This document shows, one piece after another, positions 20,581-59,369 of a stretch of 64,000 nucleotides of DNA. The DNA comes from Pseudomonadota bacterium (GTDB taxonomy: Bacteria; Pseudomonadota; Gammaproteobacteria; Burkholderiales; Burkholderiaceae_C), in assembly GCA_020161215.1 (NCBI GenBank), contig JAIUOM010000001.1:23170-87169 (forward strand), read 5' to 3'. The translations under genes were made by a program, and so were the position numbers. Each line of letters opens with the position of its first letter. Position 1 is the first letter of the stretch. The notes under the pieces were generated by a model. That model saw only the letters and a program-made list of their open reading frames with translations, was not told the DNA's origin and searched no databases.

Positions 20581-20644
20581 TGGTACCCCGGGCCGGGATC
20601 GAACCGGCACGCCGCCTTTCGGCAAGCGGCGGATTTTAAGTCCG
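20581..20644 (-). pseudogene. 3' part of the split host tRNA-Leu(UAA) gene (anticodon loop to CCA)
   Basis: The reverse complement reads CGGACTTAAAATCCGCCGCTTGCCGAAAGGCGGCGTGCCGGTTCGATCCCGGCCCGGGGTACCA: anticodon-stem 3' strand, long variable arm, T arm GCCGG-TTCGATC-CCGGC, acceptor 3' strand, CCA. The matching 5' half lies at 59359-59397. Confidence 0.8.
20634..20644. repeat. attL core, 11-bp direct repeat TTTTAAGTCCG
   Basis: Identical 11-mer at 59359-59369; it corresponds to the anticodon loop plus part of the stem of tRNA-Leu(UAA). Confidence 0.8.
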
Positions 20645-20661
20645 ATACCGGGGCTCACTAC

Positions 20662-20750
20662 TGGTGCCACCGAGCGGACTCGAACCGCTAAGTCATTGAT
20701 TTGACGAGGGATTTTAAGTCCCCTGTGTTTACCGATTTCACCACGGTGGC
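20662..20750 (-). tRNA. Phage-borne tRNA-Leu (anticodon UAA), 89 nt including CCA
   Basis: The reverse complement GCCACCG-TG-GTGAAATCGGTAAACAC-A-GGGGA-CTTAAAA-TCCCT-C-GTCAAATCAATGAC-TT-AGCGG-TTCGAGT-CCGCT-CGGTGGC-A-CCA folds as a class II cloverleaf. The AT-rich variable arm is unlike the host copy. Confidence 0.8.
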
Positions 20751-20765
20751 GGCAAAGACAGCCAT

Positions 20766-20800
20766 TGTGACACGTCCCTGCCACAGGACTTGCCACAAGG
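20766..20800. promoter_or_regulatory. TGTGACAC-N4-CTGCCACA motif (copy A) plus an extra TGCCACAAG
   Basis: tgtgacacgtccctgccacaggacttgccacaagg. Related copies at 54240-54263 and 59175-59195. Confidence 0.4.
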
Positions 20801-20818
20801 TTGCCGCTCACCAGCCTG

Positions 20819-20848
20819 AATAAAAACGACGCTTATTGGACAACCCGG
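20819..20848 (+). promoter_or_regulatory. Phage RNAP promoter candidate, copy 1 (29/30 match)
   Basis: aataaaaacgacGcttattggacaacccgg. The other three copies are identical 30-mers. It has an ACGAC core and an AT-rich block before GG, resembling T7-class promoters. Confidence 0.6.
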
Positions 20849-20960
20849 CTTCGGGGGTCCCGTAACGACACGTTCATGAGTTTTTCAGGCGACTTCAGGC
20901 CACCCAGGCTGAAGGTGAAGTGAAAAAGTTGATGAAGGCTATCCCCGTCAACCCCCCTAC

Positions 20961-20992
20961 AGGTCCCAGTAGGTCCCCAGTAGGTCAACTAT
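20961..20992 (+). repeat. Three tandem 10-11 bp units (AGGTCCCAGT / AGGTCCCCAGT / AGGTCAACTAT) in the RNAP gene leader
   Basis: Read directly: aggtcccagtaggtccccagtaggtcaactat, followed by aggagtg (the RBS). Confidence 0.6.
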
Positions 20993-21007
20993 AGGAGTGT
21001 CCACATA

Positions 21008-23584
21008 GTGTCGGTTTTATCCCTTAAGGGCGGTGACGCCTTTTCTATTTACTTTGATTCTCTCGATCCCGAGATGGTCTCGGAACAGCTACGGATCGAA
21101 CAGGAAATCATGGAACGCGGGATAGATTCGTATTACCGCAACCTGGAGTCAGCTCGCCAGCGTGAGCAGGAGAACAGCACGAGCTTCGGCACCGCCTTGA
21201 TGAAGCGGTTCAATGCTGTGGTCGCGGATCGCATCGAAGAATTCCTCCGCTCCTTGGATACGGGCAAGCCCGGCAAGCGACACGCCTCCGCAAAGCACTT
21301 GCGGAAGATCAACCCCCGCAAGGCGGCATACCTCGCTCTCCTGGGATGCGTGGCTGGCATCCGATCAACTCGCCACCTCACTTCGGTGGCCTCTGTGGTT
21401 GGCCGAATGGTGGACGACGAGATGCGCCTGGAGGAGCTGAGAGAAAAGGACGCCAAGGAGGCGGGCAAGCTCGTGAAAAACGCCACGGAGCGGGTGTCGC
21501 ACCAGTTCCGCCGCACTTTTGTTCACCGCCACCTCAAGGGCGTCGTTGACGAGCTGCCGGCGCATGAGCGGGTCCACATCGGACTAGCCCTGATCGACTT
21601 CGTTATCGAGACCACGGGGCTGTTCCACGTTCAAGCCGCACGGGGCCGGAAAGGTAAGACGTACAACGAGTTGCTGCCGACACAAGCCGCCCTGGATTGG
21701 ATCGACCGACGCAACGCGGCAACCGAGGCCCTGCGCCCACAGCACGAGCCGATGGTGGTCCCGCCTATGCCTTGGTCGCCGGAGGAGTTCGGGGGCTATT
21801 TAACCTACGCCAAGCGGCCCTACCCGCTCGTGAAAACCCGCAACCAGGGGTTCCTCGCCGAGCTGCCCAACTACGAGATGCCTGTGATCTACGAGGCCAT
21901 CAACAACGTCCAGAACACGGGGTGGCAAGTGAACAACCGCGTCCTGGAAGTGATGAATAGCATGTGGGATGAGGACATTGCCGAGGCGGGTCTGCCCCAC
22001 CGTGGTGGCGTTCCTATCCCCCCAAAGCCGGCTGACATCGCAAGCAACGAGGAGTCCCGCAGGAGCTGGCGCCGCCGCGCTGCCGTCGCCTGGGCCGCAA
22101 ACAAGAGCCTGAGCGGCGAGCGCATCGCCACCAACTTGATGCTGGGCACCGCCAACAGGTTCGCCAAGTACCCGGCAATCTACTTCCCCTACCAGTACGA
22201 CTACCGTGGGCGCCTCTACTCTGTCCCCTCTGGACTATCCCCGCAAGGCGCTGACCCCGCCAAGGGCCTCCTCAGGTTCGCCGAGGGGAAGCCTTTGGGG
22301 GAGCGCGGGGCCTTCTGGCTGGCCTACCAAGGGGCCAACCTCGCCGGCAACGACAAGGTGACCTTCGAGGAGCGTGTGCAATGGGTCTGGGATAACGATG
22401 AGGCCATCCGGGCATGCGCCGCTGATCCGATGAACAACCGGGGCTGGTGCCGAGCCATTGGCGAAATCGCTATCGACTCCCCCTGGCAGTTCCTGGCGTT
22501 CTGTTTCGAGTGGAACGATTACCGGGCGGACCCGGACGGCTTCGTGTCGCACCTGTCGGTGGCAATGGACGGCTCGTGTTCGGGAATCCAACACTTCAGC
22601 GCCATGCTGCGAGACCCCAGCGGCGCCCGCGCTGTGAACCTCACCCCTGAGGAGCGGCCCCAGGACGTGTACCGGATCGTGGCGGACGCCGTGAGTGCCG
22701 AGCTGCGCCGAGACCTGGAACATGGCACCGAGGACAGTCTAAGCCACACCAAGGATGGCGCGGCTGTGGTGATTCAGGGCACCAAGACCCTCGCCGCTCA
22801 GTGGCTGGAGTTCGGGGTGACACGCAAGGTGACCAAGCGCCCGGTGATGACGCTCGCCTACGGGTCGAAAGAGTACGGGTTCACCGACCAGCTCCTTGAC
22901 GACATCCTGGACCCGGCCCTGGCCCACGCCACAGGCCCTGATGGGAGCATCGACAAGGACCTCTACCCGTTCACCGGGGACAAGAACGCGACTGCCCGCT
23001 ACCTCGCCAAGAAAATCTGGGCTTCGGTCACGGAGACCCTGGTGGCGGCAACCTCAGCGATGAAGTGGCTCCAGTCGGTGGCTAACCGGGTCGCCAAGGA
23101 GAACATCCCGGCCCGCTGGGAGAACGCCGTGGGCTTCCCAGTGATGCAGGCGTACCCGGACATGCGTACACGCCGAGTAACGACCAGCCTGCACGGTGGT
23201 CTCACCCTGCCGCTGCTGGAACCGAGCAAGGACGGCGGGCTGAACGTGCGGAAGATGGAGGACGGCATTGCGCCGAACTTCGTCCACTCCTGCGATGCCG
23301 CTCACCTGACCCTCACTGTGGTCCGGGGCGAGGAGTCCGGGGTTACCTCGTTCGCCGTGGTCCATGACTCGTTCGGGACCCACGCCTGCGACATGGACGT
23401 GTATTTCAAGGCGGTCCGCGAGGCGTTCGTGGAAATCTACGGGGGGATAAACGTGCTTGGCAATTTCCAGGACTCAATGGCTGAGTTGGTCGCCCCGGAG
23501 GTGGCGGCGAAGTTCCCGCCGATACCGCCCGTTGGCTCTCTGGACCTAGAGGCCGTCAAGGCGAGCAGGTATTGCTTTGCCTGA
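21008..23584 (+). CDS. T7-type single-subunit DNA-directed RNA polymerase
   Basis: DGSCSGIQHFSAMLRD, TKRPVMTLAYGSKEYGF, GIAPNFVHSCDAAHL, FAVVHDSFGTH and the C-terminal YCFA align with T7 RNAP motifs. GTG start with GGAG 12 nt upstream. Confidence 0.9.
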   Translation: MSVLSLKGGDAFSIYFDSLDPEMVSEQLRIEQEIMERGIDSYYRNLESARQREQENSTSFGTALMKRFNAVVADRIEEFLRSLDTGKPGKRHASAKHLRKINPRKAAYLALLGCVAGIRSTRHLTSVASVVGRMVDDEMRLEELREKDAKEAGKLVKNATERVSHQFRRTFVHRHLKGVVDELPAHERVHIGLALIDFVIETTGLFHVQAARGRKGKTYNELLPTQAALDWIDRRNAATEALRPQHEPMVVPPMPWSPEEFGGYLTYAKRPYPLVKTRNQGFLAELPNYEMPVIYEAINNVQNTGWQVNNRVLEVMNSMWDEDIAEAGLPHRGGVPIPPKPADIASNEESRRSWRRRAAVAWAANKSLSGERIATNLMLGTANRFAKYPAIYFPYQYDYRGRLYSVPSGLSPQGADPAKGLLRFAEGKPLGERGAFWLAYQGANLAGNDKVTFEERVQWVWDNDEAIRACAADPMNNRGWCRAIGEIAIDSPWQFLAFCFEWNDYRADPDGFVSHLSVAMDGSCSGIQHFSAMLRDPSGARAVNLTPEERPQDVYRIVADAVSAELRRDLEHGTEDSLSHTKDGAAVVIQGTKTLAAQWLEFGVTRKVTKRPVMTLAYGSKEYGFTDQLLDDILDPALAHATGPDGSIDKDLYPFTGDKNATARYLAKKIWASVTETLVAATSAMKWLQSVANRVAKENIPARWENAVGFPVMQAYPDMRTRRVTTSLHGGLTLPLLEPSKDGGLNVRKMEDGIAPNFVHSCDAAHLTLTVVRGEESGVTSFAVVHDSFGTHACDMDVYFKAVREAFVEIYGGINVLGNFQDSMAELVAPEVAAKFPPIPPVGSLDLEAVKASRYCFA
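21061..21074. promoter_or_regulatory. Palindromic operator-type site TCTCG-ATCC-CGAGA inside the 5' end of the RNAP gene
   Basis: Perfect 5-bp arms; belongs to the TCTCG-N4-CGAGA family (see findings). Confidence 0.45.
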
Positions 23585-23588
23585 ACAC

Positions 23589-23602
23589 TCTCGCAATCGT
23601 GA
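23589..23602. promoter_or_regulatory. Operator-like site TCTCG-CAAT-CGTGA (1 arm mismatch)
   Basis: Lies just after the RNAP stop and before promoter copy 2. Confidence 0.3.
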
Positions 23603-23624: not shown

Positions 23625-23654
23625 AATAAAAACGACCCTTATTGGACAACCCGG
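23625..23654 (+). promoter_or_regulatory. Phage RNAP promoter candidate, copy 2
   Basis: aataaaaacgacccttattggacaacccgg, identical to copies 3 and 4. Confidence 0.6.
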
Positions 23655-23696
23655 CGTCTTCGTCAGGTGTCCTCCTCACCCAACCAAAGGATCACC

Positions 23697-24267: not shown

Positions 24268-24969
24268 ATGAGCAAAGATACCAAGAAGCGAGCACTGGAA
24301 TTCACCTCCCCCCGAGGCGTGTTCGTCTACCCGTCCCTGGACAAGCCCGACTTCGGGACCAAGGCGTTTCCGAAACCGGATGGTGAGTACAAGGTCACCC
24401 TGAAGCTGCCCGAAGCGGACGCTGAAAAGTTCATCAGCGAGAAGCTGGGTGGCCTGATCGAAGAAGCCCGTGAAGAAGCAAGCCGCGCCTTCAAAGAGCT
24501 GCCGATTGCTCAACGCAAGAAGCTGAAGGAGGTGACCTTCAACGACGTGGGCGCCCCTGAGTACGACAAGGAGACCGAGGAGCCCACGGGCTACGTCCTC
24601 ATCAAGATCGCCATGAGAGCCGGCGGCGTGCGCAAGGACAAGAGCACCTGGAACCAGCGCCCGGCCGTGTTTGACGCCCGAGGCGTGGCCCTCAAAAAGG
24701 TGCCTGAGATTTGGGGTGGCAGCGAGGGTCGCCTATCGTTCACGGCCAACCCGTACTTCATCCCCGGCACGGGTGCGGCTGGTGTCTCGCTGCGCCTGAA
24801 GGCGGCTCAGGTCATCAAGCTCGTCCAGGGTGGTCAGCGAGACGCTGGTGGCTTCGGATTTGCGCCGGAGGACGACGGCTTCGACAGCTCCGAATTCGAG
24901 GCCGCAGGCGACGATGCTGTGTCCGATGCGGCTGTGCCCGCTGACACCGCAGGTGACGAGGACTTCTGA
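24268..24969 (+). CDS. Single-stranded DNA-binding protein, T7 gp2.5-like
   Basis: 233 aa. The N-terminus RGVFVYPSLDKPD and an acidic C-terminal tail ending ...AGDEDF (terminal Phe, as in gp2.5); located between RNAP and endonuclease I. Confidence 0.75.
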   Translation: MSKDTKKRALEFTSPRGVFVYPSLDKPDFGTKAFPKPDGEYKVTLKLPEADAEKFISEKLGGLIEEAREEASRAFKELPIAQRKKLKEVTFNDVGAPEYDKETEEPTGYVLIKIAMRAGGVRKDKSTWNQRPAVFDARGVALKKVPEIWGGSEGRLSFTANPYFIPGTGAAGVSLRLKAAQVIKLVQGGQRDAGGFGFAPEDDGFDSSEFEAAGDDAVSDAAVPADTAGDEDF

Positions 24970-25403
24970 TGACAGCTCCCCGCCGCGCGGCTGGGGGGAA
25001 GGCAATCAAGCGGATCACCGCTTACCGGAGCGGGCTGGAAGCAAAGCTCGCAGCTCAACTGGCATCTATCGGTGTTGAAGTCCTGTACGAGGACAAGGGG
25101 TCAGTCATCAAGTATGAGACCCCCGCCGAAAACCACAGGTACACGCCGGACTTCGTTCTCCCCAACGGAATCGTCATTGAATCCAAGGGAATTTTCGATT
25201 CGGCCGACCGCAAGAAGCATCTCCTCATCCGCGCCCAGCACCCAGACATCGACATCCGCTTCGTTTTCTCACGGAGCAAAGCGCCCATCTACAAGGGCTC
25301 CCCTACCAGCTATGCCGCGTGGTGCGCGAAGCACGGCTTTCAGTACACCGACCGGCTAATCCCCCCGGCGTGGCTGGACGAACCCAGAAAGGAAAACACA
25401 TGA
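24969..25403 (+). CDS. Endonuclease I (T7 gp3-like Holliday-junction resolvase)
   Basis: YRSGLEAKLAAQL...HRYTPDFVLPNGIVIESKG...DRKKHLLIRAQHPDIDIRFVF...YKGSPTSY is nearly colinear with T7 gp3. Confidence 0.9.
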   Translation: MTAPRRAAGGKAIKRITAYRSGLEAKLAAQLASIGVEVLYEDKGSVIKYETPAENHRYTPDFVLPNGIVIESKGIFDSADRKKHLLIRAQHPDIDIRFVFSRSKAPIYKGSPTSYAAWCAKHGFQYTDRLIPPAWLDEPRKENT

Positions 25404-25852
25404 GCACCGTAGCCGGACTCAAAAAACGCCCCCGCACGGACTACCTCGTGGTCCATGCGAGCGCCACCCGACCCTCCCAAGACATCGGAGCACGAACCAT
25501 CGACCGCTGGCATCGCGGCAGAGGCTGGGCCTGCATCGGTTATCACTTCGTTATCCGCCGAGACGGCACCGTTGAAGAAGGGCGCGGCCAGGACTTGATT
25601 GGTGCACACGTCTACGGCCACAACGCCACCAGCCTGGGCATCTGCTTGGCTGGCGGGGTAGCCGAGAAAGATGGCAAGACCGCCGAGAACAACTACACGC
25701 CGGAGCAGATGGTGACCCTAGTGGCGCTCCTCAAGGACCTCTCCAAGCAGTACCGTGGGGCCGTCATCCAGGGTCACCGCGACTTCAAAGGAGTCAAGAA
25801 GGATTGCCCCTGCTTTGATGTGCGCAAATGGTGGAAGGAGGTGAATACCTGA
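25400..25852 (+). CDS. N-acetylmuramoyl-L-alanine amidase (T7 lysozyme gp3.5-like)
   Basis: 150 aa. DYLVVHASAT...IGYHFVIRRDGTVEEGR...GHRDF...CPCFDV. ATGA overlap with the endonuclease stop. Confidence 0.9.
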   Translation: MSTVAGLKKRPRTDYLVVHASATRPSQDIGARTIDRWHRGRGWACIGYHFVIRRDGTVEEGRGQDLIGAHVYGHNATSLGICLAGGVAEKDGKTAENNYTPEQMVTLVALLKDLSKQYRGAVIQGHRDFKGVKKDCPCFDVRKWWKEVNT

Positions 25853-25858
25853 GGGGGA

Positions 25859-26269
25859 CTACATCTTCTCCAGCGGGGGGCAGCCGTTGAGTTCACGGAC
25901 AACTTCCCGCGCCACGTCGAGGTAACTCATTTGACGTTTGATCCGGTGGTCAATGATGGCGGCGCCGAACAGTCGGTACGGATCAGTTATCGACCCAATC
26001 TGAGTCATCTCGCAGCCGTGGTCGAACTCCAGGTCCCGCGCTGCCCTGATGTACCCCTGACAAGTGCCTGCCCCCATCGCATCGCTTAGCGTTGCTGAGC
26101 GTTGCTTGTGCTCAAGTAAGCGGACCACGAGAAAGCAGCCCTCAGCAACGCTATCGGCTGGTTTCGCCGGGACTATCTTCGGAATAAGACCCTCAGGGAC
26201 AGGGGTCTTGGCGTGTACGGGCACCTGAAAAACGGCCACCAGAGCGGCCAATAACAACAACTTTTTCAT
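25859..26269 (-). CDS. Secreted/periplasmic hypothetical protein (136 aa); the only antisense gene in the prophage (moron)
   Basis: MKKLLLLAALVAVFQVPVHA signal peptide and four Cys. TATAGT -10-like hexamer 6 nt upstream of the ATG on the minus strand. The ORF-track start at 26389 is probably too long. Confidence 0.6.
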   Translation of the reverse strand: MKKLLLLAALVAVFQVPVHAKTPVPEGLIPKIVPAKPADSVAEGCFLVVRLLEHKQRSATLSDAMGAGTCQGYIRAARDLEFDHGCEMTQIGSITDPYRLFGAAIIDHRIKRQMSYLDVAREVVRELNGCPPLEKM

Positions 26270-26354
26270 CGTCCAACTATAGAACATCGACCCCACCAAC
26301 CGACTCGCCGCACGTCCTGACCTCTGATGCTGCGGCGCAGCCACCAACCAACAC

Positions 26355-26378
26355 AGCCCCGCAAGGGGCTTTTCTTTT
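26355..26378 (+). terminator. Hairpin-TTTCTTTT element
   Basis: agcccc-gcaa-ggggct followed by tttctttt. Confidence 0.45.
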
Positions 26379-26381
26379 GCC

Positions 26382-26714
26382 ATGAACAAGCCTTCTCTGT
26401 TTGAAGCCGAGGCCCGAGCGCGGTTCTTCCGAACTATCCGGGAAATCGAGCTTCCCCGTCTCCTAGGGGACGCCGGTATCGACTACCGATACACGCCTTG
26501 GGGCTACGAGTTCCAAATCGTTGTCGTAGGCCCTTGCAATGTCTCCGGGGAACTGGAGACGCACCGGGGCCGTTGGTGGGCCTGGGACTTTGAGGACAGC
26601 GTGCACGCCCTGCTGCGCTCTGTATTCCTGGCCGTCAAGGTGTTTGCCGAGCACGAGCTGGCCGAGCAGTTCCAGTTCAGTGGCAAGGCACTGTTCTTCC
26701 CCAGCCATGGCTGA
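26382..26714 (+). CDS. Hypothetical protein (110 aa)
   Basis: ORF immediately upstream of the primase-helicase and overlapping its start. Confidence 0.5.
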   Translation: MNKPSLFEAEARARFFRTIREIELPRLLGDAGIDYRYTPWGYEFQIVVVGPCNVSGELETHRGRWWAWDFEDSVHALLRSVFLAVKVFAEHELAEQFQFSGKALFFPSHG

Positions 26715-28314: not shown

Positions 28315-28390
28315 CCACGCCGCCCAACGCCCCGCACGGCGCACTCCGGGACTTTTCTTTTAACTCAGCATTCAACAATAAGGAGGCCCT

Positions 28391-29041: not shown

Positions 29042-29153
29042 TCTGCCCAGGGAGCCGCTGAAGGCTCTCCCCCCCTCCTCACCTCACAGACCCCGCTTGC
29101 GCCCACCTAGGGCCGGCGGGGTTTTCCATTTCCGATCAACAAGGACCTCCTCA

Positions 29154-29432: not shown

Positions 29433-29434
29433 GC

Positions 29435-49917: not shown

Positions 49918-49941
49918 GCCTCCTCTCCGATCACCTACCGG

Positions 49942-49978
49942 CCCCCTCTCGGGTTCTCCCAGAGGGGGTTTTCTATTT
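49942..49978 (+). terminator. Hairpin-TTTTCTATTT element
   Basis: 8-bp stem ccccctct/agaggggg with an 11-nt loop. Confidence 0.45.
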
Positions 49979-49993
49979 CCGAAGGAAAAACAC

Positions 49994-51387: not shown

Positions 51388-51644
51388 CCGAAGACAAACC
51401 GAAAACCGCAGCCATCCCTGAGCTGGAGGAGCTGCATAGTGCGCTGGCACGGGAGCTTCGTCAGGCGCTCTCTGCTCGTGACGAGAACGGCCGACCCATC
51501 GCCGCCCTACTCAACGTGGCACGTCAGTACCTGAAGGACAACAAGATCGAAGCGGCACCCGTTCCGGGCTCCCCTCTGGGTGACCTCGCGGCCATGCCCG
51601 TGTTTGATGACGACGAACAGGACGCACTCGGCTTGCCGAACTGA
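51384..51644 (+). CDS. Terminase small subunit (gp18-like)
   Basis: 86 aa, position and size as T7 gp18. ATGA overlap with the previous ORF. Confidence 0.6.
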   Translation: MTEDKPKTAAIPELEELHSALARELRQALSARDENGRPIAALLNVARQYLKDNKIEAAPVPGSPLGDLAAMPVFDDDEQDALGLPN

Positions 51645-51705
51645 TCGTCACCTCTATTCCCCCTGCTCTGATCTAAGACCGGGCAGTCAACGAGCCCCCG
51701 TAGGT

Positions 51706-51730
51706 AGCCCCTGCGGGGGCTTTTTCTTTT
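51706..51730 (+). terminator. Hairpin-TTTTTCTTTT element
   Basis: agcccc-tgcg-ggggct followed by ttttctttt. Confidence 0.45.
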
Positions 51731-51742
51731 CCCGAGGAGCCC

Positions 51743-53687: not shown

Positions 53688-53717
53688 AATAAAAACGACC
53701 CTTATTGGACAACCCGG
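53688..53717 (+). promoter_or_regulatory. Phage RNAP promoter candidate, copy 4 (phiOR-like position, facing the non-coding terminus region)
   Basis: Identical 30-mer. Confidence 0.6.
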
Positions 53718-53973
53718 TGTGAATCGGCCTTGTCTGGGGAGCGTCCCTACTCATGGGTAGGACGGCGGCCTTTGGCAACTTTGCCGCTTGGGGACTAGTG
53801 AAGCCAACCAGGAGTCCAGATGGACTCTGTGGAATGTGGGTTTATGTTCTCTCTGCTCCTACCTCTTGTCTATCTCTGGGACCCCGTAAAGGCCCTCTAG
53901 AGGTTCAATCTACGGGGGGTAGGGGGGGAGTTGAAAACAGCTCGCTCCCAGAGAGTCCTACCTCAACTACCTC

Positions 53974-53997
53974 CCTATTGATTACCTAAAGGGAACC
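53974..53997 (+). repeat. CCTATTGATT-ACCTAAAGGG element (copy 1 of a pair exactly 300 bp apart) with tandem CCTAAAGG
   Basis: cctattgattacctaaagggaacctaaagg; partner cctattgattcttaagggga at 54274. Confidence 0.5.
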
Positions 53998-54239
53998 TAA
54001 AGGCGAACCCAGCGGGGACCTGGCGGGATGCCTCCAGGGACCAATAGAGTGCTTAGCGGGGTACAGCCATCATGGTCTACCCAAGAGCGAAGCGACTGAG
54101 GGGAGCCCCCAAATAATTAGCCGCAAAAGTCCGAGGACACCCTCGATACAGGGGCGGCGCGAATTTCCCCCCATGGCCCCCTCGAAGCCCCCCCCCTACC
54201 TCCCCGGTGGAGAACCTCCATGCACCCCCTCCGGGCGCC

Positions 54240-54263
54240 TGTGACACCGTGACACCTGCCACA
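54240..54263. promoter_or_regulatory. TGTGACAC...CTGCCACA motif (copy B)
   Basis: tgtgacaccgtgacacctgccaca. Confidence 0.35.
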
Positions 54264-54273
54264 AGCGAGCTAA

Positions 54274-54295
54274 CCTATTGATTCTTAAGGGGACC
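54274..54295 (+). repeat. CCTATTGATT-CTTAAGGGGA element (copy 2)
   Basis: Shares CCTATTGATT and a CT(A/T)AAGGG-like tail with the element at 53974. Confidence 0.5.
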
Positions 54296-54449
54296 GCAGC
54301 GGATGGGGCATCCACAGGGGGGCGGATTCGGGGCCTTGAGAGTCACTGGGTGTGGTTCTTTATAGCTATTTGATATGATGAACCAGTTGTTAATAGCCAA
54401 TAGCTATATCACTGCATCTTTGGCTATCTGTAGTTGTTATTCCTTTTAG

Positions 54450-54473
54450 TTATAAAGACAGAATTCTTTATAA
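54450..54473. repeat. Palindrome TTATAAAG-N8-CTTTATAA in an AT-rich block
   Basis: Read directly. Confidence 0.5.
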
Positions 54474-54480
54474 CCCCATG

Positions 54481-54648
54481 CCACCTCTAGGCCACCTCCA
54501 GGCACTGCACCGAGCCACCCCAGGCACTGCACCGAGCCACCTCCAGGCCACCTCCAGGCCACCTCCAGGCACCCCCAGGCCACCTCCAGGCCACCTCCAG
54601 GCACTGCACCTCTAGGCCACCTCCAGGCACTACACCGGGCCACCCAAG
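54481..54648 (+). repeat. Degenerate tandem array: ~11 copies of the 11-bp unit GCCACCTCCAG interspersed with 4 copies of GCACTGCACCGA-like units
   Basis: Read directly. Flanked by AT-rich DNA at 54355-54476 and 54652-54745. Confidence 0.8.
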
Positions 54649-54697: not shown

Positions 54698-54727
54698 TTG
54701 ACTTAATACTCTCGATATCGGGATACT
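54698..54727 (+). promoter_or_regulatory. Sigma70-type early promoter TTGACT-N18-GATACT
   Basis: The hexamers equal those I recall for T7 A1 (TTGACT/GATACT). The spacer holds operator TCTCGATATCGGGA. 47 nt upstream of the first early ORF. Confidence 0.55.
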
Positions 54728-54740
54728 CTCGACATCGGTT
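54710..54740. promoter_or_regulatory. Operator pair O1: TCTCGATATCGGGA + TCTCGACATCGGTT (17-bp register)
   Basis: The first 14-mer is identical at 55336 and 59218; near-palindrome of TCTCGATATCGAGA. Confidence 0.5.
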
Positions 54741-54774: not shown

Positions 54775-55332
54775 TTGATTAAGACCCCCGTCAACGAATA
54801 CACGATGAACAAAGCAGGCGCCGAGCTGGGCCGCTGGATGATCCAGAGAGCTGCCCGTTTGGCCCGTGATGTTGGATTCAGCTACGAGCCGGCTGGTGAT
54901 GCCCCGGAGACCTACGAAGCTGTCCTGGCTGCTGTACGCCGTTCGCAGTGTGAGCGGGTTCCCTTCCCGGTTTGGGCAGGCGGATCGGACGCCACCATCT
55001 ATGGCAGTGCGGAGGCCAATTACGCTTTCCGCTACTGGCATGACATGGCCCATATCGCCTCTACGGGTGACTTCACAGTCGCCGGGGAACTGGCTGCTGT
55101 CCGTATGCAGCTCACCGAACTTGCTCGCACTTTCGGTACAGACTCAATCGAATACGCCCTGTTCGTTGCTGACACTCTCGGGCAGGTTTGGTTCCACGAG
55201 CGCACCGAGGGCGGATTCGTCCAGGATCAAAAAAGCTGGGTGTTTGCTGTCGTCCAGGCTCACGCGGACACCCACCGAGGAGACCTCCAGGGACTTGAGG
55301 CTCATTTCCTAGAGGGCCTTCGTTCGTCCTAA
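54775..55332 (+). CDS. Hypothetical early protein (185 aa)
   Basis: TTG start 7 nt after AGGAG; first ORF downstream of the early promoter. Confidence 0.5.
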   Translation: MIKTPVNEYTMNKAGAELGRWMIQRAARLARDVGFSYEPAGDAPETYEAVLAAVRRSQCERVPFPVWAGGSDATIYGSAEANYAFRYWHDMAHIASTGDFTVAGELAAVRMQLTELARTFGTDSIEYALFVADTLGQVWFHERTEGGFVQDQKSWVFAVVQAHADTHRGDLQGLEAHFLEGLRSS

Positions 55333-55335
55333 CCC

Positions 55336-55369
55336 TCTCGATATCGGGACTATCTCGGGTTTGCCGAGA
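55336..55369. promoter_or_regulatory. Operator pair O2: TCTCGATATCGGGA + TCTCGG-GTTTG-CCGAGA
   Basis: Same 17-bp register as O1. Confidence 0.5.
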
Positions 55370-55446
55370 GGTCCCCCCAGAGGGTCCGAGCCGGGTTCTC
55401 TGGGGGGATTCGCCCCTACCGATCAAGCACCAACGGAGATTTGAAG

Positions 55447-55539
55447 ATGAGTGACCTCTACGACCTCTTTCACGACTGCCCCGAGCTGGCAGAGGCTGTG
55501 AACGAAGCCCAGCACGCCGATGGCGATACAGGGGAGTGA
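55447..55539 (+). CDS. Possible 30-aa acidic peptide
   Basis: MSDLYDLFHDCPELAEAVNEAQHADGDTGE; GGAG RBS; below the ORF-track threshold. Confidence 0.25.
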   Translation: MSDLYDLFHDCPELAEAVNEAQHADGDTGE

Positions 55540-55541
55540 CC

Positions 55542-55967
55542 ATGGCGGAACTAGTCACCTTTGACCCCACGAGCCTAGGCTCTCATCGCGCCCGGAACAT
55601 GAGCCCCGAAAAAGAGCTGCTGCACGCCTATTCGGCTGTCGTGGTCGATGCTGAAGGAGGCTTGTCTAACCCCGTTACCGCCCGCGTTTACGGATCGCGG
55701 CATGGCGATGGCGCCGGGCGCCTGTGGGCATCCGTGTGGACGGCCCCGGAAAGCCTTAAGGGGGGCGGCGCCAGCGGCTGGGGGTACGTCACCGGCTGCG
55801 GATACCACAAGCCCAGCGCGGCGATTGCTGTGGCGCTGCGTGCGGCTGGCTGGCTGTTGCCTTTCGAGGTGTCGGGCTGCGGCCATGGAACCACCATCCG
55901 CGCCCTTGAGGCTGTCGCTATGGCATGCGTCCCAGGCGCCGCACGGGGACAGGTCATCACGCACTGA
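55542..55967 (+). CDS. Hypothetical early protein (141 aa)
   Basis: ATG at 55542 (the ORF track uses the GTG at 55536). Two GCG(Y/H) motifs. Confidence 0.5.
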   Translation: MAELVTFDPTSLGSHRARNMSPEKELLHAYSAVVVDAEGGLSNPVTARVYGSRHGDGAGRLWASVWTAPESLKGGGASGWGYVTGCGYHKPSAAIAVALRAAGWLLPFEVSGCGHGTTIRALEAVAMACVPGAARGQVITH

Positions 55968-56069
55968 GCGCCAGAACTGCGCCTGAAGGGCACCCGGAGG
56001 GGCCGCTTAGAGTGGCCGTGGGGGGTGCCCTTTGGGGGCCGCTTTGGCCCGTACAAAGGAGAAAAATCC

Positions 56070-56681
56070 ATGCCTAGCATCGACGTGCCCGCAGCACATT
56101 TAAAAGCCTTGGCGCGGTTCACCGTCCCCAAGGACATCCGCAGCTCTTATCGGGGGGTATGGGTGGAGCGCTCGCGGGTCTACCGTAGCGGGTTCACCCT
56201 GGCCGCATCCAACGGGTTCGCCCTGGCCGTCCTGCACTACGCGGAGGGCGGGCGCGAGCTGGGGCCAACACCCTACATGATCGACCCAAAACCGCCGAAG
56301 CCGGCGCGGCGAGAGGTTCAGCCAAGGTTCACCCAAAAGCTGGTCCGGGTGCGTTGGTCCGAGCCGGCCAATGCCCAAGGCGGCTTACCTTGGCGGGATG
56401 TCTTTCCGGCACAGATCACCGGGGAGCCGGCGCAATACGCGCCCCACAGCTTGAACTTGTTCGGCCGGTTGGCTGCTGCGGTTGCAAATCAGCGGCTGGG
56501 CAACCCGGCTATTCCGTGCATCCACTACAACGGCCCCAATCACCCCGGAATCGTCACTTTCCCGGCGCTGGACAGCGATGAAGCCGCCCCCGAGTTCGTC
56601 GGTGTTATCTCCCCGGTCCATAGCTGGCCCGCAGAGGGGACCCATGCAGGCCCGTACATGCCTGCCGTTTGGGCCGCTTGA
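56070..56681 (+). CDS. Hypothetical early protein (203 aa)
   Basis: AAGGAG RBS before the ATG at 56070. The N-terminal LKALARFTVPKD...GFTLAASNGFALAV faintly recalls a beta-clamp domain; unverified. Confidence 0.5.
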   Translation: MPSIDVPAAHLKALARFTVPKDIRSSYRGVWVERSRVYRSGFTLAASNGFALAVLHYAEGGRELGPTPYMIDPKPPKPARREVQPRFTQKLVRVRWSEPANAQGGLPWRDVFPAQITGEPAQYAPHSLNLFGRLAAAVANQRLGNPAIPCIHYNGPNHPGIVTFPALDSDEAAPEFVGVISPVHSWPAEGTHAGPYMPAVWAA

Positions 56682-56715
56682 CGTGGCCGCAGAAAACTCC
56701 TTTCAGAGAATCAAT

Positions 56716-56940
56716 ATGACAAACGAAATCCGCCCGATCTTGAACATCACCCGCCGCGCTTGTCCCGCCCAGAAGTTCGCCAAATACGCCCGCGTGGTGT
56801 TCCCCGAGGGGGTCACCCGCAGCGCTGTCGAGGCCACCATTGGGCGCTTCCCGGCGTCCGAGGGGTTCCGCGTGAGCCTGCGCCGCTCTGGCCCCGTGGG
56901 CTTTTCGCTCCCCCTTGAGCTGGCCGAGCTGGGGGCATGA
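56716..56940 (+). CDS. Hypothetical protein (74 aa)
   Basis: Internal ATG of ORF 56482-56940; abuts the next ORF (ATGA overlap). Confidence 0.4.
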   Translation: MTNEIRPILNITRRACPAQKFAKYARVVFPEGVTRSAVEATIGRFPASEGFRVSLRRSGPVGFSLPLELAELGA

Positions 56941-57245
56941 CCATGGCACGCATCGACATAAACCACATCCTGCTCTTGCGCCCGGTCGGTAGTCGGTACG
57001 GGGCACCGCTGGGCCGTAGGAACGTCCTGGGCGAGCCGTCCCCGCTGTATCTCCAGCGTGTCCGGTTTGTGGATGGCGACTACGCCCCCGATGGGACCTA
57101 CTGGGGCGGTGGAGGTGCCCCCCTGTGGTGCGCGTTCACGCCGGACCTATCCACTGAGGTCTATGTGCGAGCGCGGAGCCGCGCGGAGGCGTTTGAGGCC
57201 GTCAAGGCTGAGTGCCCCGAAGCCACTCTTTTCCGTGCGCCCTAA
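56937..57245 (+). CDS. Hypothetical protein (102 aa)
   Basis: ORF track; translationally coupled to the previous ORF. Confidence 0.45.
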   Translation: MTMARIDINHILLLRPVGSRYGAPLGRRNVLGEPSPLYLQRVRFVDGDYAPDGTYWGGGGAPLWCAFTPDLSTEVYVRARSRAEAFEAVKAECPEATLFRAP

Positions 57246-57310: not shown

Positions 57311-57377
57311 GTTGCTTACTCTGGTGGCCGATTCTGCTGGGCTTTCCCCGGCATAAAAGTAACCAAAAAACACTCAA

Positions 57378-57390
57378 ATTACCGGGTAAT
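57378..57390. promoter_or_regulatory. Palindrome ATTACC-G-GGTAAT
   Basis: In the 450-bp lower-GC non-coding region upstream of the MarR-like gene. Confidence 0.4.
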
Positions 57391-57488
57391 TCCCGTTGTT
57401 TTAACGCGACTTAACCATGGAAACAGGGGCTTGCGCAACAGGTCCGGTGTAACATCCTCTCCCGCTGCCGGGACAATCATTGAATCGA

Positions 57489-57532
57489 GTTACTGCCGGT
57501 AACGGTAGTTATGATCCTTCTTTATCCATAAC
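57489..57532. promoter_or_regulatory. Palindromes GTTAC-TGCCG-GTAAC and GTTATG-N13-CATAAC
   Basis: Read directly; share the TTAC..GTAA theme with 57378. Confidence 0.4.
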
Positions 57533-57697
57533 ATAGGATCGTCGTTTTGATGCACGTCAAAGTAGCTGGGCACGAAGTAATTCTCACGACCGCCCCCTTA
57601 GCGCCGCCGTATGCAGCGTTCGACCGAACGTACTGCGGTGGATTTGAGGTCTTCTTAGGGCCTCTCCATCTAATCTACAGCCGACCAAGGAAACGCT

Positions 57698-58084
57698 GTG
57701 AACGAAAAACTAACAATCGAGGAGCGTATTGCAACGAACCGCCTGTATGCGGTGTTGGAGGAACTGGGGGGCGTACATCCGAATATGACGGTAGCGCAGC
57801 TCAAGACTCTCGTTGCAGCAGCGTTGAATCCAGGCAGCACCGTGACCGAGCTTGGAAAGCTGACTGGAACCACCCTCTCGTCCGCTTCGCGGCACGTCGA
57901 TGCACTTGGCCCGCTCCAGGCGACCCGCAAGATCGGTATGGATTTGGTGACATCTGACTATGACGCCCTAAACAGGCGCCGGAAAGTGGTCCAGCTCACC
58001 GCAGACGGCTACCGCCTCCTACGCGCGGTGCTGATGCGGATGGCCGGTCCTGCTGGGATCACTGTGACACGTCCTAAGGAGTAA
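57698..58084 (+). CDS. MarR-like winged-helix transcriptional regulator
   Basis: MTVAQLKTLVAAALNPGSTVTELGKLTGTTLSSASRHVDAL...RRKVVQLTADGYRLL. GTG start after AAGGAAA; 4 nt upstream of the integrase gene. Confidence 0.6.
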   Translation: MNEKLTIEERIATNRLYAVLEELGGVHPNMTVAQLKTLVAAALNPGSTVTELGKLTGTTLSSASRHVDALGPLQATRKIGMDLVTSDYDALNRRRKVVQLTADGYRLLRAVLMRMAGPAGITVTRPKE

Positions 58085-58088
58085 TTGA

Positions 58089-59312
58089 ATGCCTATCTAT
58101 GAACGAGGAGGCGCCTTTCAGGTGTCCGTGGGGTCAGGGGCTGCGCGAAAGCGCGAGACGACCTCCACCAGAGCGGAAGCCGAGGCCCTTGAACTGGCCC
58201 TGCTGGCCGAGTTGCGCGATGAAAAGCTGCGACGTGTAGCGGCCCGCGCCCAGGGTGACCCAGCAAAGACTGTGGGGCACGCTGTCGAGGCCGCTATTCG
58301 GGACCACTGGCTGGACACCAAGAGCCGACGCACTACGGAGCTGAATGTGCGCGACATCGCCGCCATCCTCGGATGGGACCGCCCGCTGGTGAGCCTCATG
58401 ACGAGTGACGTGGACGACGCCGTTGCGGAGCTGATTGAGCGCGGAATCACCGGGTCCACGATCAACCGCAAGCTGTCCGCCCTGAGCGTGTCCCTGCGCA
58501 ACGCCCGCCGCAAAGGGTGGGTGAAGGACCTACCGGACATCCTCAGGAGGAAAGAATCGGAATGTCGCATCGGCTGGTACACGGAGGAGACCGAGAAGCT
58601 GATGCTGGACACATGCGAGCGGCTGGGTCTGAATGCCCTGGCGAACTTCATCACGGTTGGCATCGACACTGGGTTCCGCCGCACGGAGATGCTGCGGCTG
58701 GTCCCTGCCGACTTAGCTGGCGGTCTGGTCATCCTGCATGCTGGGGAAACCAAGAGCGGTAAGGCCCGCGCTGTGCCCGCTACGGAGTCCGTGGTTGCCG
58801 TCTTTGAAGCTGCCAAGGGGGTCGGTAGCCCCCGCGTGTTTCAGAGCCTCACAGACTCAATCCTGAGGTCGCAATGGTCCCAGCTCCGGGAGGCCCTACA
58901 TCGAGAGCAAGACCCGTTCTTCATCGTGCACACCCTGCGTCATACCACAGCCACCCGGCTGGCCTTCGCTGGGGCCACCGCACCGCAGATCATGGCGTTC
59001 ATGGGGCACTCAAGCCTTCAGGTCTCGCAGAAGTACATCCACCTTGCTGCGGAACACGTCAAAGGGATTGAAGTGCTGTTGACCAGGAAGGCCCCAAGGG
59101 TGGTTTCAGCCCCCCTGCCGACACCTCTGCCGGTTCCCGCTCAACCCGCTGCTGGGGACCCTACTGAGGCACCTTGTGACACCAAACCTGCCACAAACCC
59201 CCTTTTTCGCCAATCATTCTCGATATCGGGACCATCTCAATATCGAGTTACAAATCAACAGTTTAGTGGGTTTTCACTGGGCAACTTAGGAGGGCCGTGG
59301 CAGAAAACATAA
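58089..59312 (+). CDS. Tyrosine recombinase/integrase
   Basis: RRTEMLRL (Arg I), HTLRHTTATRL (HxxR), MGHSSLQVSQKYIH (His...Tyr). About 85 non-conserved-looking C-terminal residues overlap regulatory motifs. Confidence 0.85.
   Translation: MPIYERGGAFQVSVGSGAARKRETTSTRAEAEALELALLAELRDEKLRRVAARAQGDPAKTVGHAVEAAIRDHWLDTKSRRTTELNVRDIAAILGWDRPLVSLMTSDVDDAVAELIERGITGSTINRKLSALSVSLRNARRKGWVKDLPDILRRKESECRIGWYTEETEKLMLDTCERLGLNALANFITVGIDTGFRRTEMLRLVPADLAGGLVILHAGETKSGKARAVPATESVVAVFEAAKGVGSPRVFQSLTDSILRSQWSQLREALHREQDPFFIVHTLRHTTATRLAFAGATAPQIMAFMGHSSLQVSQKYIHLAAEHVKGIEVLLTRKAPRVVSAPLPTPLPVPAQPAAGDPTEAPCDTKPATNPLFRQSFSISGPSQYRVTNQQFSGFSLGNLGGPWQKT
59175..59195. promoter_or_regulatory. TGTGACAC-N5-CTGCCACA motif (copy C)
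   Basis: tgtgacaccaaacctgccaca, 164 bp from the attR core. Confidence 0.4.
59218..59248. promoter_or_regulatory. Operator pair O4: TCTCGATATCGGGA + TCTCAATATCGAGT
   Basis: Same 14-mer and 17-bp register as O1/O2; inside the integrase 3' end. Confidence 0.5.
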
Positions 59313-59358
59313 TCGGATTCGAGAGCTTCGCGTCAACGGCAGGGACTTTAGCAGTGTC

Positions 59359-59369
59359 TTTTAAGTCCG
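59359..59369. repeat. attR core, 11-bp direct repeat TTTTAAGTCCG
   Basis: Identical to 20634-20644. Confidence 0.8.

What the first reader, a model, noticed from the sequence alone, without database searches (positions are those of the whole stretch)
20634..59369. Complete T7-type podovirus genome residing as an integrase-bearing prophage
The interval holds the full T7 gene order on one strand: RNAP, gp2.5-like SSB, endonuclease I, amidase, primase-helicase, DNAP, exonuclease, portal, scaffold, capsid, tubular A/B, gp13-16-like core proteins, fibre and both terminases. A tyrosine integrase and a MarR-like regulator follow. The element is bounded by an 11-bp direct repeat inside a tRNA gene. 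No core gene looks truncated. T7-like phages are the textbook obligately lytic group. As far as I recall, integrase-bearing relatives are known only sporadically (e.g. cyanopodovirus P-SSP7, which also matches a host tRNA-Leu). How a phage that brings its own RNAP is kept silent is essentially undescribed. No CI/Cro-like pair is visible here.
Basis: partly seen in the sequence, partly recalled or inferred. Interest (0 to 1): 0.75.

Follow-up and report, generated by a model that had tools for sequence, protein, structure and literature searches.

The report
Intact temperate T7-like prophage in tRNA-Leu
This is a complete, apparently functional T7-type phage integrated in a Burkholderiales chromosome; it splits the host's leucine tRNA gene and carries its own replacement copy, an arrangement already described for several other T7-like phages.

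Summary
Window 20645-59369 (38,725 bp, 61.6% GC against 66.5% in the flanks) is a full T7-order phage genome on the + strand. No core gene is truncated. It is collinear, at 40-82% amino-acid identity, with the isolated Limnohabitans phage YIMV22061.

It ends with a MarR-like regulator and a tyrosine integrase. It is bounded by the 11-bp repeat TTTTAAGTCCG.

One refinement: the repeat is the anticodon stem-loop of a host tRNA-Leu(UAA) that is split and not rebuilt. Joining the two flanks gives a junction found exactly in 57 Burkholiales genomes. The intact tRNA-Leu(UAA) at 20662-20750 is a separate, phage-borne gene next to attP.

The novelty claim does not hold. Integrase-bearing T7-like phages and prophages are widely reported (pelagiphages, Pasto, LUZ100, Ralstonia and Bordetella phages). 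A MarR-based silencing model and a phage promoter ahead of the RNA polymerase gene are published. Disruption of a host tRNA with a phage tRNA as substitute is published too.

Added here:
- four phage-type promoters;
- a palindromic operator candidate, TCYCG-N4-CGRGA;
- the inference that integration cuts the polymerase gene off from host promoters.

Verdict: a new member of a known kind, of modest interest.

The parts
20579..20644 (-). 3' half of the split host tRNA-Leu(UAA) 'A', including the attL core TTTTAAGTCCG (20634-20644)
   Evidence: Read directly from the sequence. Joined to 59370-59398 it gives a 92-nt tRNA-Leu(UAA) called by ARAGORN. The junction 34-mer is found exactly in 57 Burkholderiales genomes. 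The left flank is collinear with about 20 of them right up to the junction.
20645..20661 (-). 17-nt spacer of the phage P' arm; it holds a relic of the tRNA-A acceptor strand (GCCCCGGT on the - strand) fused to the anticodon stem
   Evidence: Only a sub-threshold Rfam hit covers the junction.
20662..20750 (-). Phage-borne complete tRNA-Leu(UAA) 'B'
   Evidence: ARAGORN. Rfam tRNA 59.3 bits against a gathering score of 29. A homologous tRNA sits at the same place and orientation in Limnohabitans phage YIMV22061. Compared by eye, the two differ by changes on both sides of acceptor-stem and anticodon-stem pairs.
20775..20799 (.). Candidate integrase arm-type sites (CCCTGCCACAGG, CTTGCCACAAGG) in the P' arm
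   Evidence: Repeated k-mers around attP. Matching CCCTGGCACAG repeats occur at the equivalent places in L058. Inference only.
20819..20852 (+). Phage-type promoter phi1, upstream of the RNAP gene (one mismatch to the other three copies)
   Evidence: Repeat family D3. The 23-mer has 4 matches against 0.00 expected.
21008..23584 (+). T7-type single-subunit RNA polymerase
   Evidence: phrog_414, E 8e-258. PF00940 and PF14700. 52% identity to the YIMV22061 RNAP.
21061..21074 (.). Operator-like palindrome TCTCGATCCCGAGA inside RNAP codons 18-23
   Evidence: The same offset is occupied in L058. However, the encoded peptide D-x-L-D-x-E-M is also conserved, so this site is inconclusive.
23589..23602 (.). 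Operator-like near-palindrome TCTCGCAATCGTGA just after the RNAP stop codon, ahead of phi2
   Evidence: L058 has TCTCGCTTCCGAGA in the same non-coding position.
23625..23658 (+). Phage-type promoter phi2
24268..33191 (+). DNA-metabolism block: gp2.5 SSB, endonuclease I, amidase, primase-helicase, GDSL-like protein, GNAT, DNAP, small ORFs, exonuclease
34232..34265 (+). Phage-type promoter phi3, ahead of the structural genes
34660..53476 (+). Structural, lysis and packaging block: portal, scaffold, 3-TM holin-like protein, capsid, tail tubular A and B, four internal virion proteins (the last with an SLT domain), fibre, small and large terminase
53688..53721 (+). Phage-type promoter phi4, downstream of the large terminase gene
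   Evidence: L058 has its own promoter copy in the same place (family D8).
53984..54628 (.). Non-coding stretch with short repeat arrays (ACCTAAAGG x2; CCAGGCCACCT x13.5) and an AT-rich segment; probable neighbourhood of the virion ends and terminal repeat
   Evidence: L058 has analogous arrays. The role is inferred by analogy with T7 (my own knowledge).
54698..54740 (+). Candidate early host-RNAP promoter (TTGACT-18-GATACT) overlapped by two tandem operator-like palindromes
54775..57245 (+). Early-region ORFs of unknown function (54775-55332, 55536-55967, 56025-56681, 56937-57245), with an operator-like palindrome at 55336-55349
57460..57473 (.). Palindrome TCCCGCTGCCGGGA, 225 nt upstream of the regulator gene
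57698..58084 (+). MarR-like winged-helix regulator, the putative prophage repressor
   Evidence: phrog_9665, E 5e-16. Pfam MarR_2 is below its cut-off. 46% identity to the YIMV22061 homologue and 43% to LUZ100 gp10. A profile of 52 relatives hits 68 PDB sequences; nearly all of the 60 listed carry MarR-family names, best E 2e-9.
58089..59312 (+). Tyrosine integrase (R197, K225, H281, R284, H307, Y316), with a roughly 75-aa C-terminal extension that overlaps the P arm
   Evidence: PF00589. phrog_1. 49% identity to the YIMV22061 integrase. Residue positions.
59218..59231 (.). Operator-like palindrome TCTCGATATCGGGA between the integrase catalytic domain and the attR core
59359..59398 (-). attR core TTTTAAGTCCG (59359-59369) plus the 5' half of host tRNA-Leu(UAA) 'A'

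Best explanation
The element is an intact temperate member of the Autographiviridae (T7-like). It is 38.7 kb long and integrated in a Burkholderiales chromosome.

Shown:
- Its tyrosine integrase recombined an attP lying between the integrase gene and the RNA polymerase gene with the anticodon stem-loop of the host tRNA-Leu(UAA).
- Only 11 bp are shared, so the host tRNA is split and not rebuilt.
- A complete phage tRNA-Leu(UAA), embedded in attP 17 nt from the core, lies just inside the left end.

Inferred:
- The phage tRNA substitutes for the lost host tRNA ('tRNA-dependent lysogeny'). It may also help to read the phage's more frequent UUA codons.
- Silence rests on two things. First, integration separates the RNA polymerase gene from every host-type early promoter. 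These now lie at the far right end and read outward through the regulator and integrase genes. The polymerase gene keeps only its own phage-type promoter, which needs the polymerase itself.
- Second, the MarR-like protein binds TCYCG-N4-CGRGA palindromes. These overlap the early promoter, lie upstream of its own gene and bracket the polymerase gene.
- On induction, excision rejoins the early promoters to the polymerase gene. The phage promoter ahead of that gene then gives positive feedback, and the other three phage promoters drive DNA-metabolism and virion genes.
For: - Complete gene set with intact domains.
- Full-length collinearity with a plaque-forming phage.
- att core repeat.
- The reconstructed attB is an intact tRNA-Leu(UAA) by ARAGORN, and its junction is found exactly in 57 related genomes with a collinear left flank.
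- No tRNA-Leu A is callable at attL or attR.
- Phage tRNA B scores 59 bits. It is conserved, with compensatory stem changes, in YIMV22061. A tRNA-Leu(UAA) also sits in the lysogeny module of LUZ100.
- Four copies of a 23-nt phage-type promoter against 0 expected.
- The palindrome occurs 7 times in the window, all inside the prophage, against 0.44 expected. It occurs 5 times in YIMV22061 against 0.32 expected, partly at equivalent places. It is absent from the 57 host-type loci.
- A sigma70-like promoter overlaps the palindrome at 54698-54727. No sigma70-like site lies on the + strand between attL and the RNAP start.
- The same attL and attR junctions, at 99.6-100% identity, occur in independent metagenome assemblies. 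This points to stable lysogeny.
- Published models for relatives: PMC10134795, bioRxiv 10.1101/410191, PMC10865867.
Against: - No free or excised form was found. The predicted attP junction is absent from IMG/VR and from the JGI metagenome contigs, and every contig recovered shows the integrated form.
- Two assemblies carry an IS3-type insertion in the nozzle gene, so the lineage can decay.
- Binding of the MarR-like protein to the palindrome is untested.
- The palindrome inside the RNAP gene coincides with a conserved peptide.
- The right flank has no syntenic counterpart among the 57 loci.
- Whether the host has a second tRNA-Leu(UAA) gene is unknown.
- Pfam MarR_2 is below its cut-off for the single sequence.
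Confidence: 0.8

Rival explanations
1. It is a cryptic or defective prophage: structurally complete by eye, but no longer able to excise or form particles, and kept only as a passenger or for its tRNA.
For: - Only integrated forms were seen in all contigs recovered.
- The attP junction was not found in two collections.
- An IS3-disrupted variant and a small deletion variant exist in other samples.
- No excisionase was identified.
Against: - Every core gene is full-length against an isolated phage, with complete domains.
- The integrase catalytic residues are present.
- The core repeats are identical.
- Promoter and operator repeats are intact.
- The attP search needed an exact match and did not cover the ENA and Logan data in which this phage is actually found.
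Confidence: 0.15
2. It reflects transient integration during an essentially lytic infection, as shown for T7-like cyanophages, rather than true lysogeny.
For: S-TIP37 and P-SSP7 integrate into tRNA-Leu but give no stable lysogens (PMC8776855).
Against: - The junctions are assembled at contig level, continuous with up to 90 kb of host DNA, in many independent samples at about 100% identity.
- An IS element has had time to insert in some copies.
- Unlike the cyanophages, this phage has a MarR-like regulator and repeated operator-like sites.
Confidence: 0.03
3. The phage tRNA-Leu(UAA) serves mainly to supplement codons during lytic growth, not to replace the host tRNA.
For: TTA codons are about five times more frequent in phage genes (1.67 per 1000) than in the host genes of the window (0.33 per 1000).
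Against: - The tRNA has the same anticodon as the gene the phage destroys.
- It lies inside attP, 17 nt from the core.
- It is on the strand opposite to all phage genes and is not preceded by a phage promoter in its own orientation.
- The same pairing of a disrupted host tRNA with a phage tRNA is reported for pelagiphages HTVC025P and HTVC019P (10.1101/410191). It is shown experimentally for mycobacteriophages (PMC10865867).
- The two roles do not exclude each other.
Confidence: 0.25

Closest known systems
Limnohabitans phage YIMV22061 (PQ492660.1; PMC12195039)
   Same: - Collinear over the whole genome at 40-82% amino-acid identity.
- Same order of MarR-like regulator, integrase, attP-like anticodon-loop mimic, tRNA-Leu(UAA) on the opposite strand, phage promoter and RNAP.
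- Same TCTCG-N4-CGAGA palindromes.
- Similar short-repeat arrays after the large terminase gene.

   Different: - It was isolated as a free phage. Its paper does not discuss lysogeny, and its record calls the integrase and regulator hypothetical proteins.
- RNAP is only 52% identical.
- The promoter sequence and the fibre C-terminus differ.
- The other early genes are unrelated.
- Here the integrated state, and so attB, attL and attR, can be seen.
Pseudomonas phage LUZ100 (OP329100; PMC10134795), and Agrobacterium phage Pasto (Boeckman et al. 2022, as cited in PMC10134795)
   Same: - T7-like with a MarR-like regulator directly upstream of the integrase, in one operon.
- A phage-specific promoter directly upstream of RNAP.
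- A tRNA-Leu(UAA) on the opposite strand in the lysogeny module.
- A published model of MarR sites around the RNAP promoter plus positive feedback.

   Different: - In LUZ100 the tRNA lies between the regulator and the integrase, and no lysogen could be obtained.
- The regulator is 43% and the integrase 34% identical.
- The palindrome found here is absent from the first 8 kb of LUZ100.
HTVC019P-type pelagiphages, especially HTVC025P and HTVC011P (bioRxiv 10.1101/410191)
   Same: - attP lies between the integrase and RNAP genes.
- The core is in the middle of a host tRNA-Leu gene.
- The host tRNA is split.
- A complete phage tRNA-Leu lies downstream of the integrase and upstream of RNAP, and was proposed to be used instead.
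- HTVC011P has a partial 5' tRNA piece after its full tRNA. This resembles the relic at 20645-20661.
   Different: - Alphaproteobacterial host.
- Integrase about 30% identical.
- Anticodon UAG in HTVC025P and HTVC011P.
- Integration there was detected during infection rather than as a resident prophage in assembled genomes.
tRNA-dependent lysogeny of mycobacteriophages such as Fionnbharth (PMC10865867)
   Same: - A short common core of about 10 bp.
- attB lies in a host tRNA that is not reconstructed.
[quoted passage not shown]
   Different: - Unrelated siphoviruses of Actinobacteria.
- The requirement for the phage tRNA was shown experimentally there. Here it is only inferred.
T7-like cyanophages P-SSP7 and S-TIP37 (PMC8776855)
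   Same: - Integrase upstream of RNAP.
- attP downstream of the integrase.
- Target is tRNA-Leu.
   Different: - The cyanophages have a long exact attP match.
- No repressor gene was found in them.
- They give integration without stable lysogeny.

Membership tests
Autographiviridae (T7-like phages) | Phage-encoded single-subunit RNA polymerase | tested here: met
   phrog_414 at E 8e-258. PF00940 and PF14700. tblastn finds 2812 phage records.
Autographiviridae (T7-like phages) | Conserved one-strand gene order: RNAP, DNA metabolism, structural genes, terminase | tested here: met
   Collinear with YIMV22061.
Autographiviridae (T7-like phages) | Repeated phage-specific promoters | tested here: met
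   A 23-mer in four co-oriented intergenic copies against 0 expected. Promoter activity itself was not tested.
Autographiviridae (T7-like phages) | Linear virion DNA with direct terminal repeats; podovirus particle | not testable with these tools
   A prophage holds only one copy of the repeat. Repeat arrays at 53984-54628 are suggestive.
Temperate T7-like phages (Pasto, LUZ100, HTVC019P type) | Tyrosine integrase upstream of RNAP, with attP between the two | tested here: met
   PF00589. Catalytic residues present. The att cores at both prophage ends place attP between 59312 and 21008.
Temperate T7-like phages (Pasto, LUZ100, HTVC019P type) | MarR-like regulator next to the integrase | tested here: met
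   The stop codon of the regulator gene lies 4 nt before the integrase start.
Temperate T7-like phages (Pasto, LUZ100, HTVC019P type) | Ability to form lysogens and to be induced | not testable with these tools
   The integrated state recurs in many assemblies. No excised form was found.
tRNA-dependent lysogeny | attB overlaps a host tRNA gene and the shared core is short (about 10 bp) | tested here: met
   An 11-bp core in the anticodon stem-loop of tRNA-Leu(UAA).
tRNA-dependent lysogeny | No functional tRNA is reconstructed at either junction | tested here: met
   ARAGORN calls no tRNA-Leu A at attL or attR. Rfam gives only a sub-threshold hit at attL.
tRNA-dependent lysogeny | [quoted passage not shown] | tested here: met
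   tRNA-Leu(UAA) at 20662-20750, 59.3 bits.
tRNA-dependent lysogeny | The host tRNA is essential and the phage tRNA is needed for lysogen survival | not testable with these tools
   Only 64 kb of the host is visible. No genetics is possible.
MarR family regulators | Winged helix-turn-helix of the MarR type | tested here: met
   A profile of 52 relatives hits 68 PDB sequences; nearly all of the 60 listed carry MarR-family names. The single sequence falls below the Pfam cut-off (21.1 against 27 bits) and matches PDB only weakly.
MarR family regulators | Binds palindromic operators as a dimer | tested here: inconclusive
   The TCYCG-N4-CGRGA palindrome is enriched and its positions are partly conserved. 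Binding has not been shown.

The most novel reading that the evidence does not exclude
In this clade, prophage silence may be partly topological. attP lies between the host-promoter-driven early and lysogeny operon and the RNA polymerase gene. Integration therefore leaves the polymerase gene at the extreme prophage end with only a self-dependent phage promoter. Excision must then come before any polymerase expression. MarR-type operators bracketing the polymerase gene act as a second lock, and lysogen survival depends on the tRNA carried inside attP.
Probability: 0.35. Interest if true: 0.45.

Novelty: new member of a known kind. Interest (0 to 1): 0.3.

Why it matters
- It is a clean natural example of a resident, apparently intact T7-like prophage. 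Both junctions are visible and the empty site can be inferred. The host group, freshwater and soil Burkholderiales, has few such phages described.
- It links three published ideas in one locus: temperate T7-like phages, MarR-based control of the phage polymerase, and tRNA-dependent lysogeny.
- It gives concrete sequences to test: four promoters, an operator candidate, the att sites and candidate arm sites.
- It does not open a new question. It offers a convenient system for one that is already posed: how a phage with its own RNA polymerase stays quiet.

Tried and rejected
- attP junction: an exact search for the predicted junction found nothing in IMG/VR or the JGI metagenome contigs.
- Right flank: no nucleotide or translated match in the 57 attB loci. 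A same-species empty site was therefore not recovered.
- Contig ends: several contigs end exactly at the core. I considered this as evidence for mixed attB and attL populations and rejected it as proof. The same tRNA sequence in other species of a metagenome would fork the assembly graph in the same way.
- The search for related loci with the integrase alone gave only two distant IMG/VR loci, without a tRNA.
- The search for homologous proteins returned only the regulator itself. A single-sequence PDB search was uninformative.
- The paper of Boeckman et al. 2022 is not held, so its model is cited through PMC10134795.
- An attempt to rebuild the DNAP of YIMV22061 across its record origin was uninformative.
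- The palindrome inside the RNAP coding region cannot be told apart from protein-level conservation.
- The sigma70 reading of the weaker repeat copies (55321, 59203, 21046, 23574) rests on poor hexamers. Only 54698-54727 passed the scan.


Full report
**1. Observation.**

The window is about 66.5% GC. Between about 20.6 and 59.4 kb the GC content falls to 61.6%.

PHROG and Pfam scans of the + strand ORFs identify the following genes:
- a T7-type RNA polymerase (21008-23584)
- gp2.5-like SSB
- endonuclease I
- amidase
- primase-helicase
- family A DNA polymerase with its exonuclease domain
- 5'-3' exonuclease
- portal
- scaffold
- a 3-TM holin-like protein
- capsid
- tail tubular A and B
- four internal virion proteins, the last 1569 aa long with an SLT domain
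- a fibre with a T7-type N-terminal adaptor
- small and large terminase

Then come about 1 kb of non-coding DNA and several ORFs of unknown function. After these lie a 128-aa winged-helix regulator (57698-58084) and a tyrosine integrase (58089-59312). The integrase carries R197, K225, H281, R284, H307 and Y316.

All proteins of the isolated Limnohabitans phage YIMV22061 (PQ492660.1) map collinearly and at full length onto the element, at 40-82% identity. So no core gene is truncated.

**2. Ends of the element.**

TTTTAAGTCCG occurs at 20634-20644 and at 59359-59369.

To the left of the first copy lies the 3' half of a tRNA-Leu on the minus strand: variable arm, T arm, acceptor strand and CCA. 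To the right of the second copy lies the matching 5' half.

Joining the two flanks in silico gives a 92-nt tRNA-Leu(UAA) that ARAGORN calls. Neither junction as it stands gives such a call. Rfam finds only a sub-threshold hit at attL.

The predicted empty-site 34-mer is found exactly in 57 Burkholderiales genomes, including Ramlibacter, Aquabacterium and Limnohabitans. In about 20 of them the 2 kb to the left (the DUF6806 and MFS transporter genes) is collinear with the window right up to the junction, at about 72-74% identity.

The right flank holds tRNA-Lys, a ThiF-like gene and a sulphur transporter gene. It has no counterpart in those loci. A same-species empty site was therefore not recovered.

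The element is 38,725 bp long, counting one core copy.

**3. The intact tRNA is the phage's own.**

The tRNA-Leu(UAA) that ARAGORN reports at 20662-20750 lies 17 nt inside the left junction. It scores 59.3 bits in Rfam. Its acceptor stem (GCCACCG/CGGTGGC) differs from that of the split host gene (GCCCCGG/CCGGGGT).

YIMV22061, a free phage, has a homologous tRNA-Leu(UAA) in the same place and orientation, between integrase and RNAP. By eye, it differs from the window's copy on both sides of acceptor-stem and anticodon-stem pairs, which is what a functional tRNA under selection would show. It is followed 7 nt later by an anticodon stem-loop mimic, GCGGACTTAAACTCCGT.

LUZ100 also has a tRNA-Leu(UAA) on the opposite strand in its lysogeny module.

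The 17-nt spacer in the window keeps the first 8 nt of the host tRNA (GCCCCGGT) fused to the anticodon stem. It looks like a decayed 5' half.

Repeats of CTGCCACA, and inverted copies of the related GTGGCAG, flank the core on both arms. CCCTGGCACAG repeats lie at the equivalent places in YIMV22061. I read these as candidate integrase arm sites. On that reading the tRNA gene sits inside attP.

**4. How this compares with published work on the tRNA.**

Pelagiphage work describes the same layout (bioRxiv 10.1101/410191):
- attP lies between integrase and RNAP.
- The core is in the middle of a host tRNA-Leu gene.
- The host gene is split.
- A full phage tRNA-Leu between integrase and RNAP is 'likely used instead' (HTVC025P).
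- In another phage a partial 5' piece follows the full tRNA (HTVC011P).

Guerrero-Bustamante and Hatfull showed experimentally, in mycobacteriophages, that a core of about 10 bp, a host tRNA that is not rebuilt and a phage tRNA of the same isotype define 'tRNA-dependent lysogeny' (PMC10865867). The three sequence-level criteria are met here. The genetic requirement cannot be tested.

TTA codons are about five times more frequent in the phage genes than in the host genes of the window: 1.67 against 0.33 per 1000. A role in lytic translation is therefore also possible.

**5. Regulatory anatomy.**

A 23-nt motif, AAAAACGACCCTTATTGGACAAC, resembles a T7 promoter. It occurs four times, always on the + strand and between genes:
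- upstream of RNAP (20822; this copy has one mismatch)
- just after RNAP (23628)
- ahead of the structural genes (34235)
- after the large terminase gene (53691)

YIMV22061 has its own, different promoter sequence at three of the equivalent positions: upstream of RNAP, after RNAP and after the large terminase gene.

A second motif, the palindrome TCYCG-N4-CGRGA, occurs seven times against 0.44 expected, and all seven lie inside the prophage. The sites are:
- two tandem copies over a sigma70-like promoter, TTGACT-18-GATACT, at 54698-54740; the second copy departs from the strict pattern
- 55336
- 57460, upstream of the regulator gene
- 59218, between the integrase core and attP
- 21061, in RNAP codons 18-23
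- two further copies at 37758 and 44771
- a near-copy at 23589, just after the RNAP stop codon

YIMV22061 has five copies against 0.32 expected, including the post-RNAP, intra-RNAP and early-region positions. The motif is absent from the 57 host-type loci and from LUZ100.

The intra-RNAP copy coincides with a conserved peptide and is inconclusive on its own. The post-stop copy is non-coding and is conserved even though the adjacent promoters differ.

The regulator is 46% identical to that of YIMV22061 and 43% identical to LUZ100 gp10. It has 472 relatives among cluster representatives. A profile of 52 relatives matches 68 PDB sequences; nearly all of the 60 listed carry MarR-family names.

**6. 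Mechanism.**

Shown: the integrated topology, the split tRNA, the phage tRNA and the repeated motifs.

Inferred:
- The regulator represses through the palindromes.
- In the free genome, host RNA polymerase starts at the early promoters and reads through the regulator, the integrase and attP into the RNAP gene.
- After integration those promoters lie 34 kb downstream and point out of the element.
- The RNAP gene is then preceded only by two convergent host genes, the antisense phage tRNA and its own phage promoter.
- No sigma70-like site was found on the + strand between attL and the RNAP start.

The published LUZ100 and Pasto model (PMC10134795, citing Boeckman 2022) already has MarR sites around the RNAP promoter and positive feedback from a phage promoter. 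The uncoupling by integration is my own addition. It follows from the family-wide position of attP.

**7. Is it a live prophage?**

Exact copies of the capsid, integrase, RNAP and flanking DUF6806 proteins occur on 15-20 contigs each, from ENA, Logan and JGI assemblies. The retrieved stretches are 99.6-100% identical to the window and always show attL or attR. This fits a stable lysogenic strain present in many samples. It does not fit transient integration of the cyanophage type (PMC8776855).

No excised form was found, but that search was exact and covered other collections.

Two assemblies carry an IS3-type insertion at 40685 in the nozzle gene, and one carries a deletion of about 50 bp in an early ORF. 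Decay does occur in this lineage, although the copy in the window is intact.

**8. Verdict.**

The claims of rarity and of an undescribed silencing problem are superseded by the literature.

RNAP identity to any GenBank phage is at most 52%. This is therefore a new lineage within the integrase-bearing T7-like phages of Betaproteobacteria: a new member of a known kind.

Noticed in passing
window 40685 (in tail tubular B gene 39405-41819); L065 5884-6010, L066 3432-3486: Contigs from two other metagenome samples match the window exactly up to 40685. They then continue into an IS3-family element (TGAACCGCCCCGGG…, OrfA start [22 protein letters not shown]). Some copies of this prophage are therefore inactivated by an insertion sequence.
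   Followed up: partly
window 56972-57022; L070: One assembly lacks about 50-57 bp in the early ORF 56937-57245, which is called as 83 aa instead of 102 aa.
   Followed up: no
window 20645-20661: The spacer between the attL core and the phage tRNA keeps GCCCCGGT, the first 8 nt of the host tRNA-Leu, fused to the anticodon stem. It is a relic without a D arm, perhaps of a 5' half that once restored the gene.
   Followed up: partly
window 53984-54628; L058 14948-15264: Arrays of short repeats (ACCTAAAGG x2; CCAGGCCACCT x13.5) and an AT-rich stretch lie after the last phage promoter. The Limnohabitans phage has analogous GGTGCCTGGTGG arrays. They probably flank the virion terminal repeat.
   Followed up: partly
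window 59187-59345 and 20775-20799; L058 10600-11000: CTGCCACA repeats, and inverted copies of the related GTGGCAG, lie on both sides of the core. CCCTGGCACAG repeats lie at the equivalent places in the Limnohabitans phage. These are candidate integrase arm-type sites, with the phage tRNA gene between the core and the P' sites.
   Followed up: partly
L058 (PQ492660.1) 11008-12427 and 127-1323: In the GenBank record of the Limnohabitans phage, the integrase and the MarR-like regulator are annotated as hypothetical proteins. The CDS at 127-1323 (+) appears to be the antisense of the N-terminal part of the DNA polymerase.
   Followed up: partly
window 28391-29041, 29198-29872 and 37249-37692: Accessory genes lie among the core genes: a GDSL-like hydrolase (below the Pfam cut-off) and a GNAT acetyltransferase ahead of the DNA polymerase, and a GTA-type 3-TM holin homologue between scaffold and capsid.
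   Followed up: no
L072, L073, L080 (Logan); L085, L088, L089 (ENA): Contigs break exactly at the att core. The Logan unitigs extend 30 nt (k-1) from the core edge. This marks a fork in the assembly graph there. It could mean empty attB sites in the same samples, or the same tRNA sequence in other species.
   Followed up: partly
window 59545-59620: A host tRNA-Lys(UUU) gene lies 150 nt beyond attR on the same strand as the split tRNA-Leu. None of the 57 related attB loci shares this right-hand neighbourhood.
   Followed up: partly
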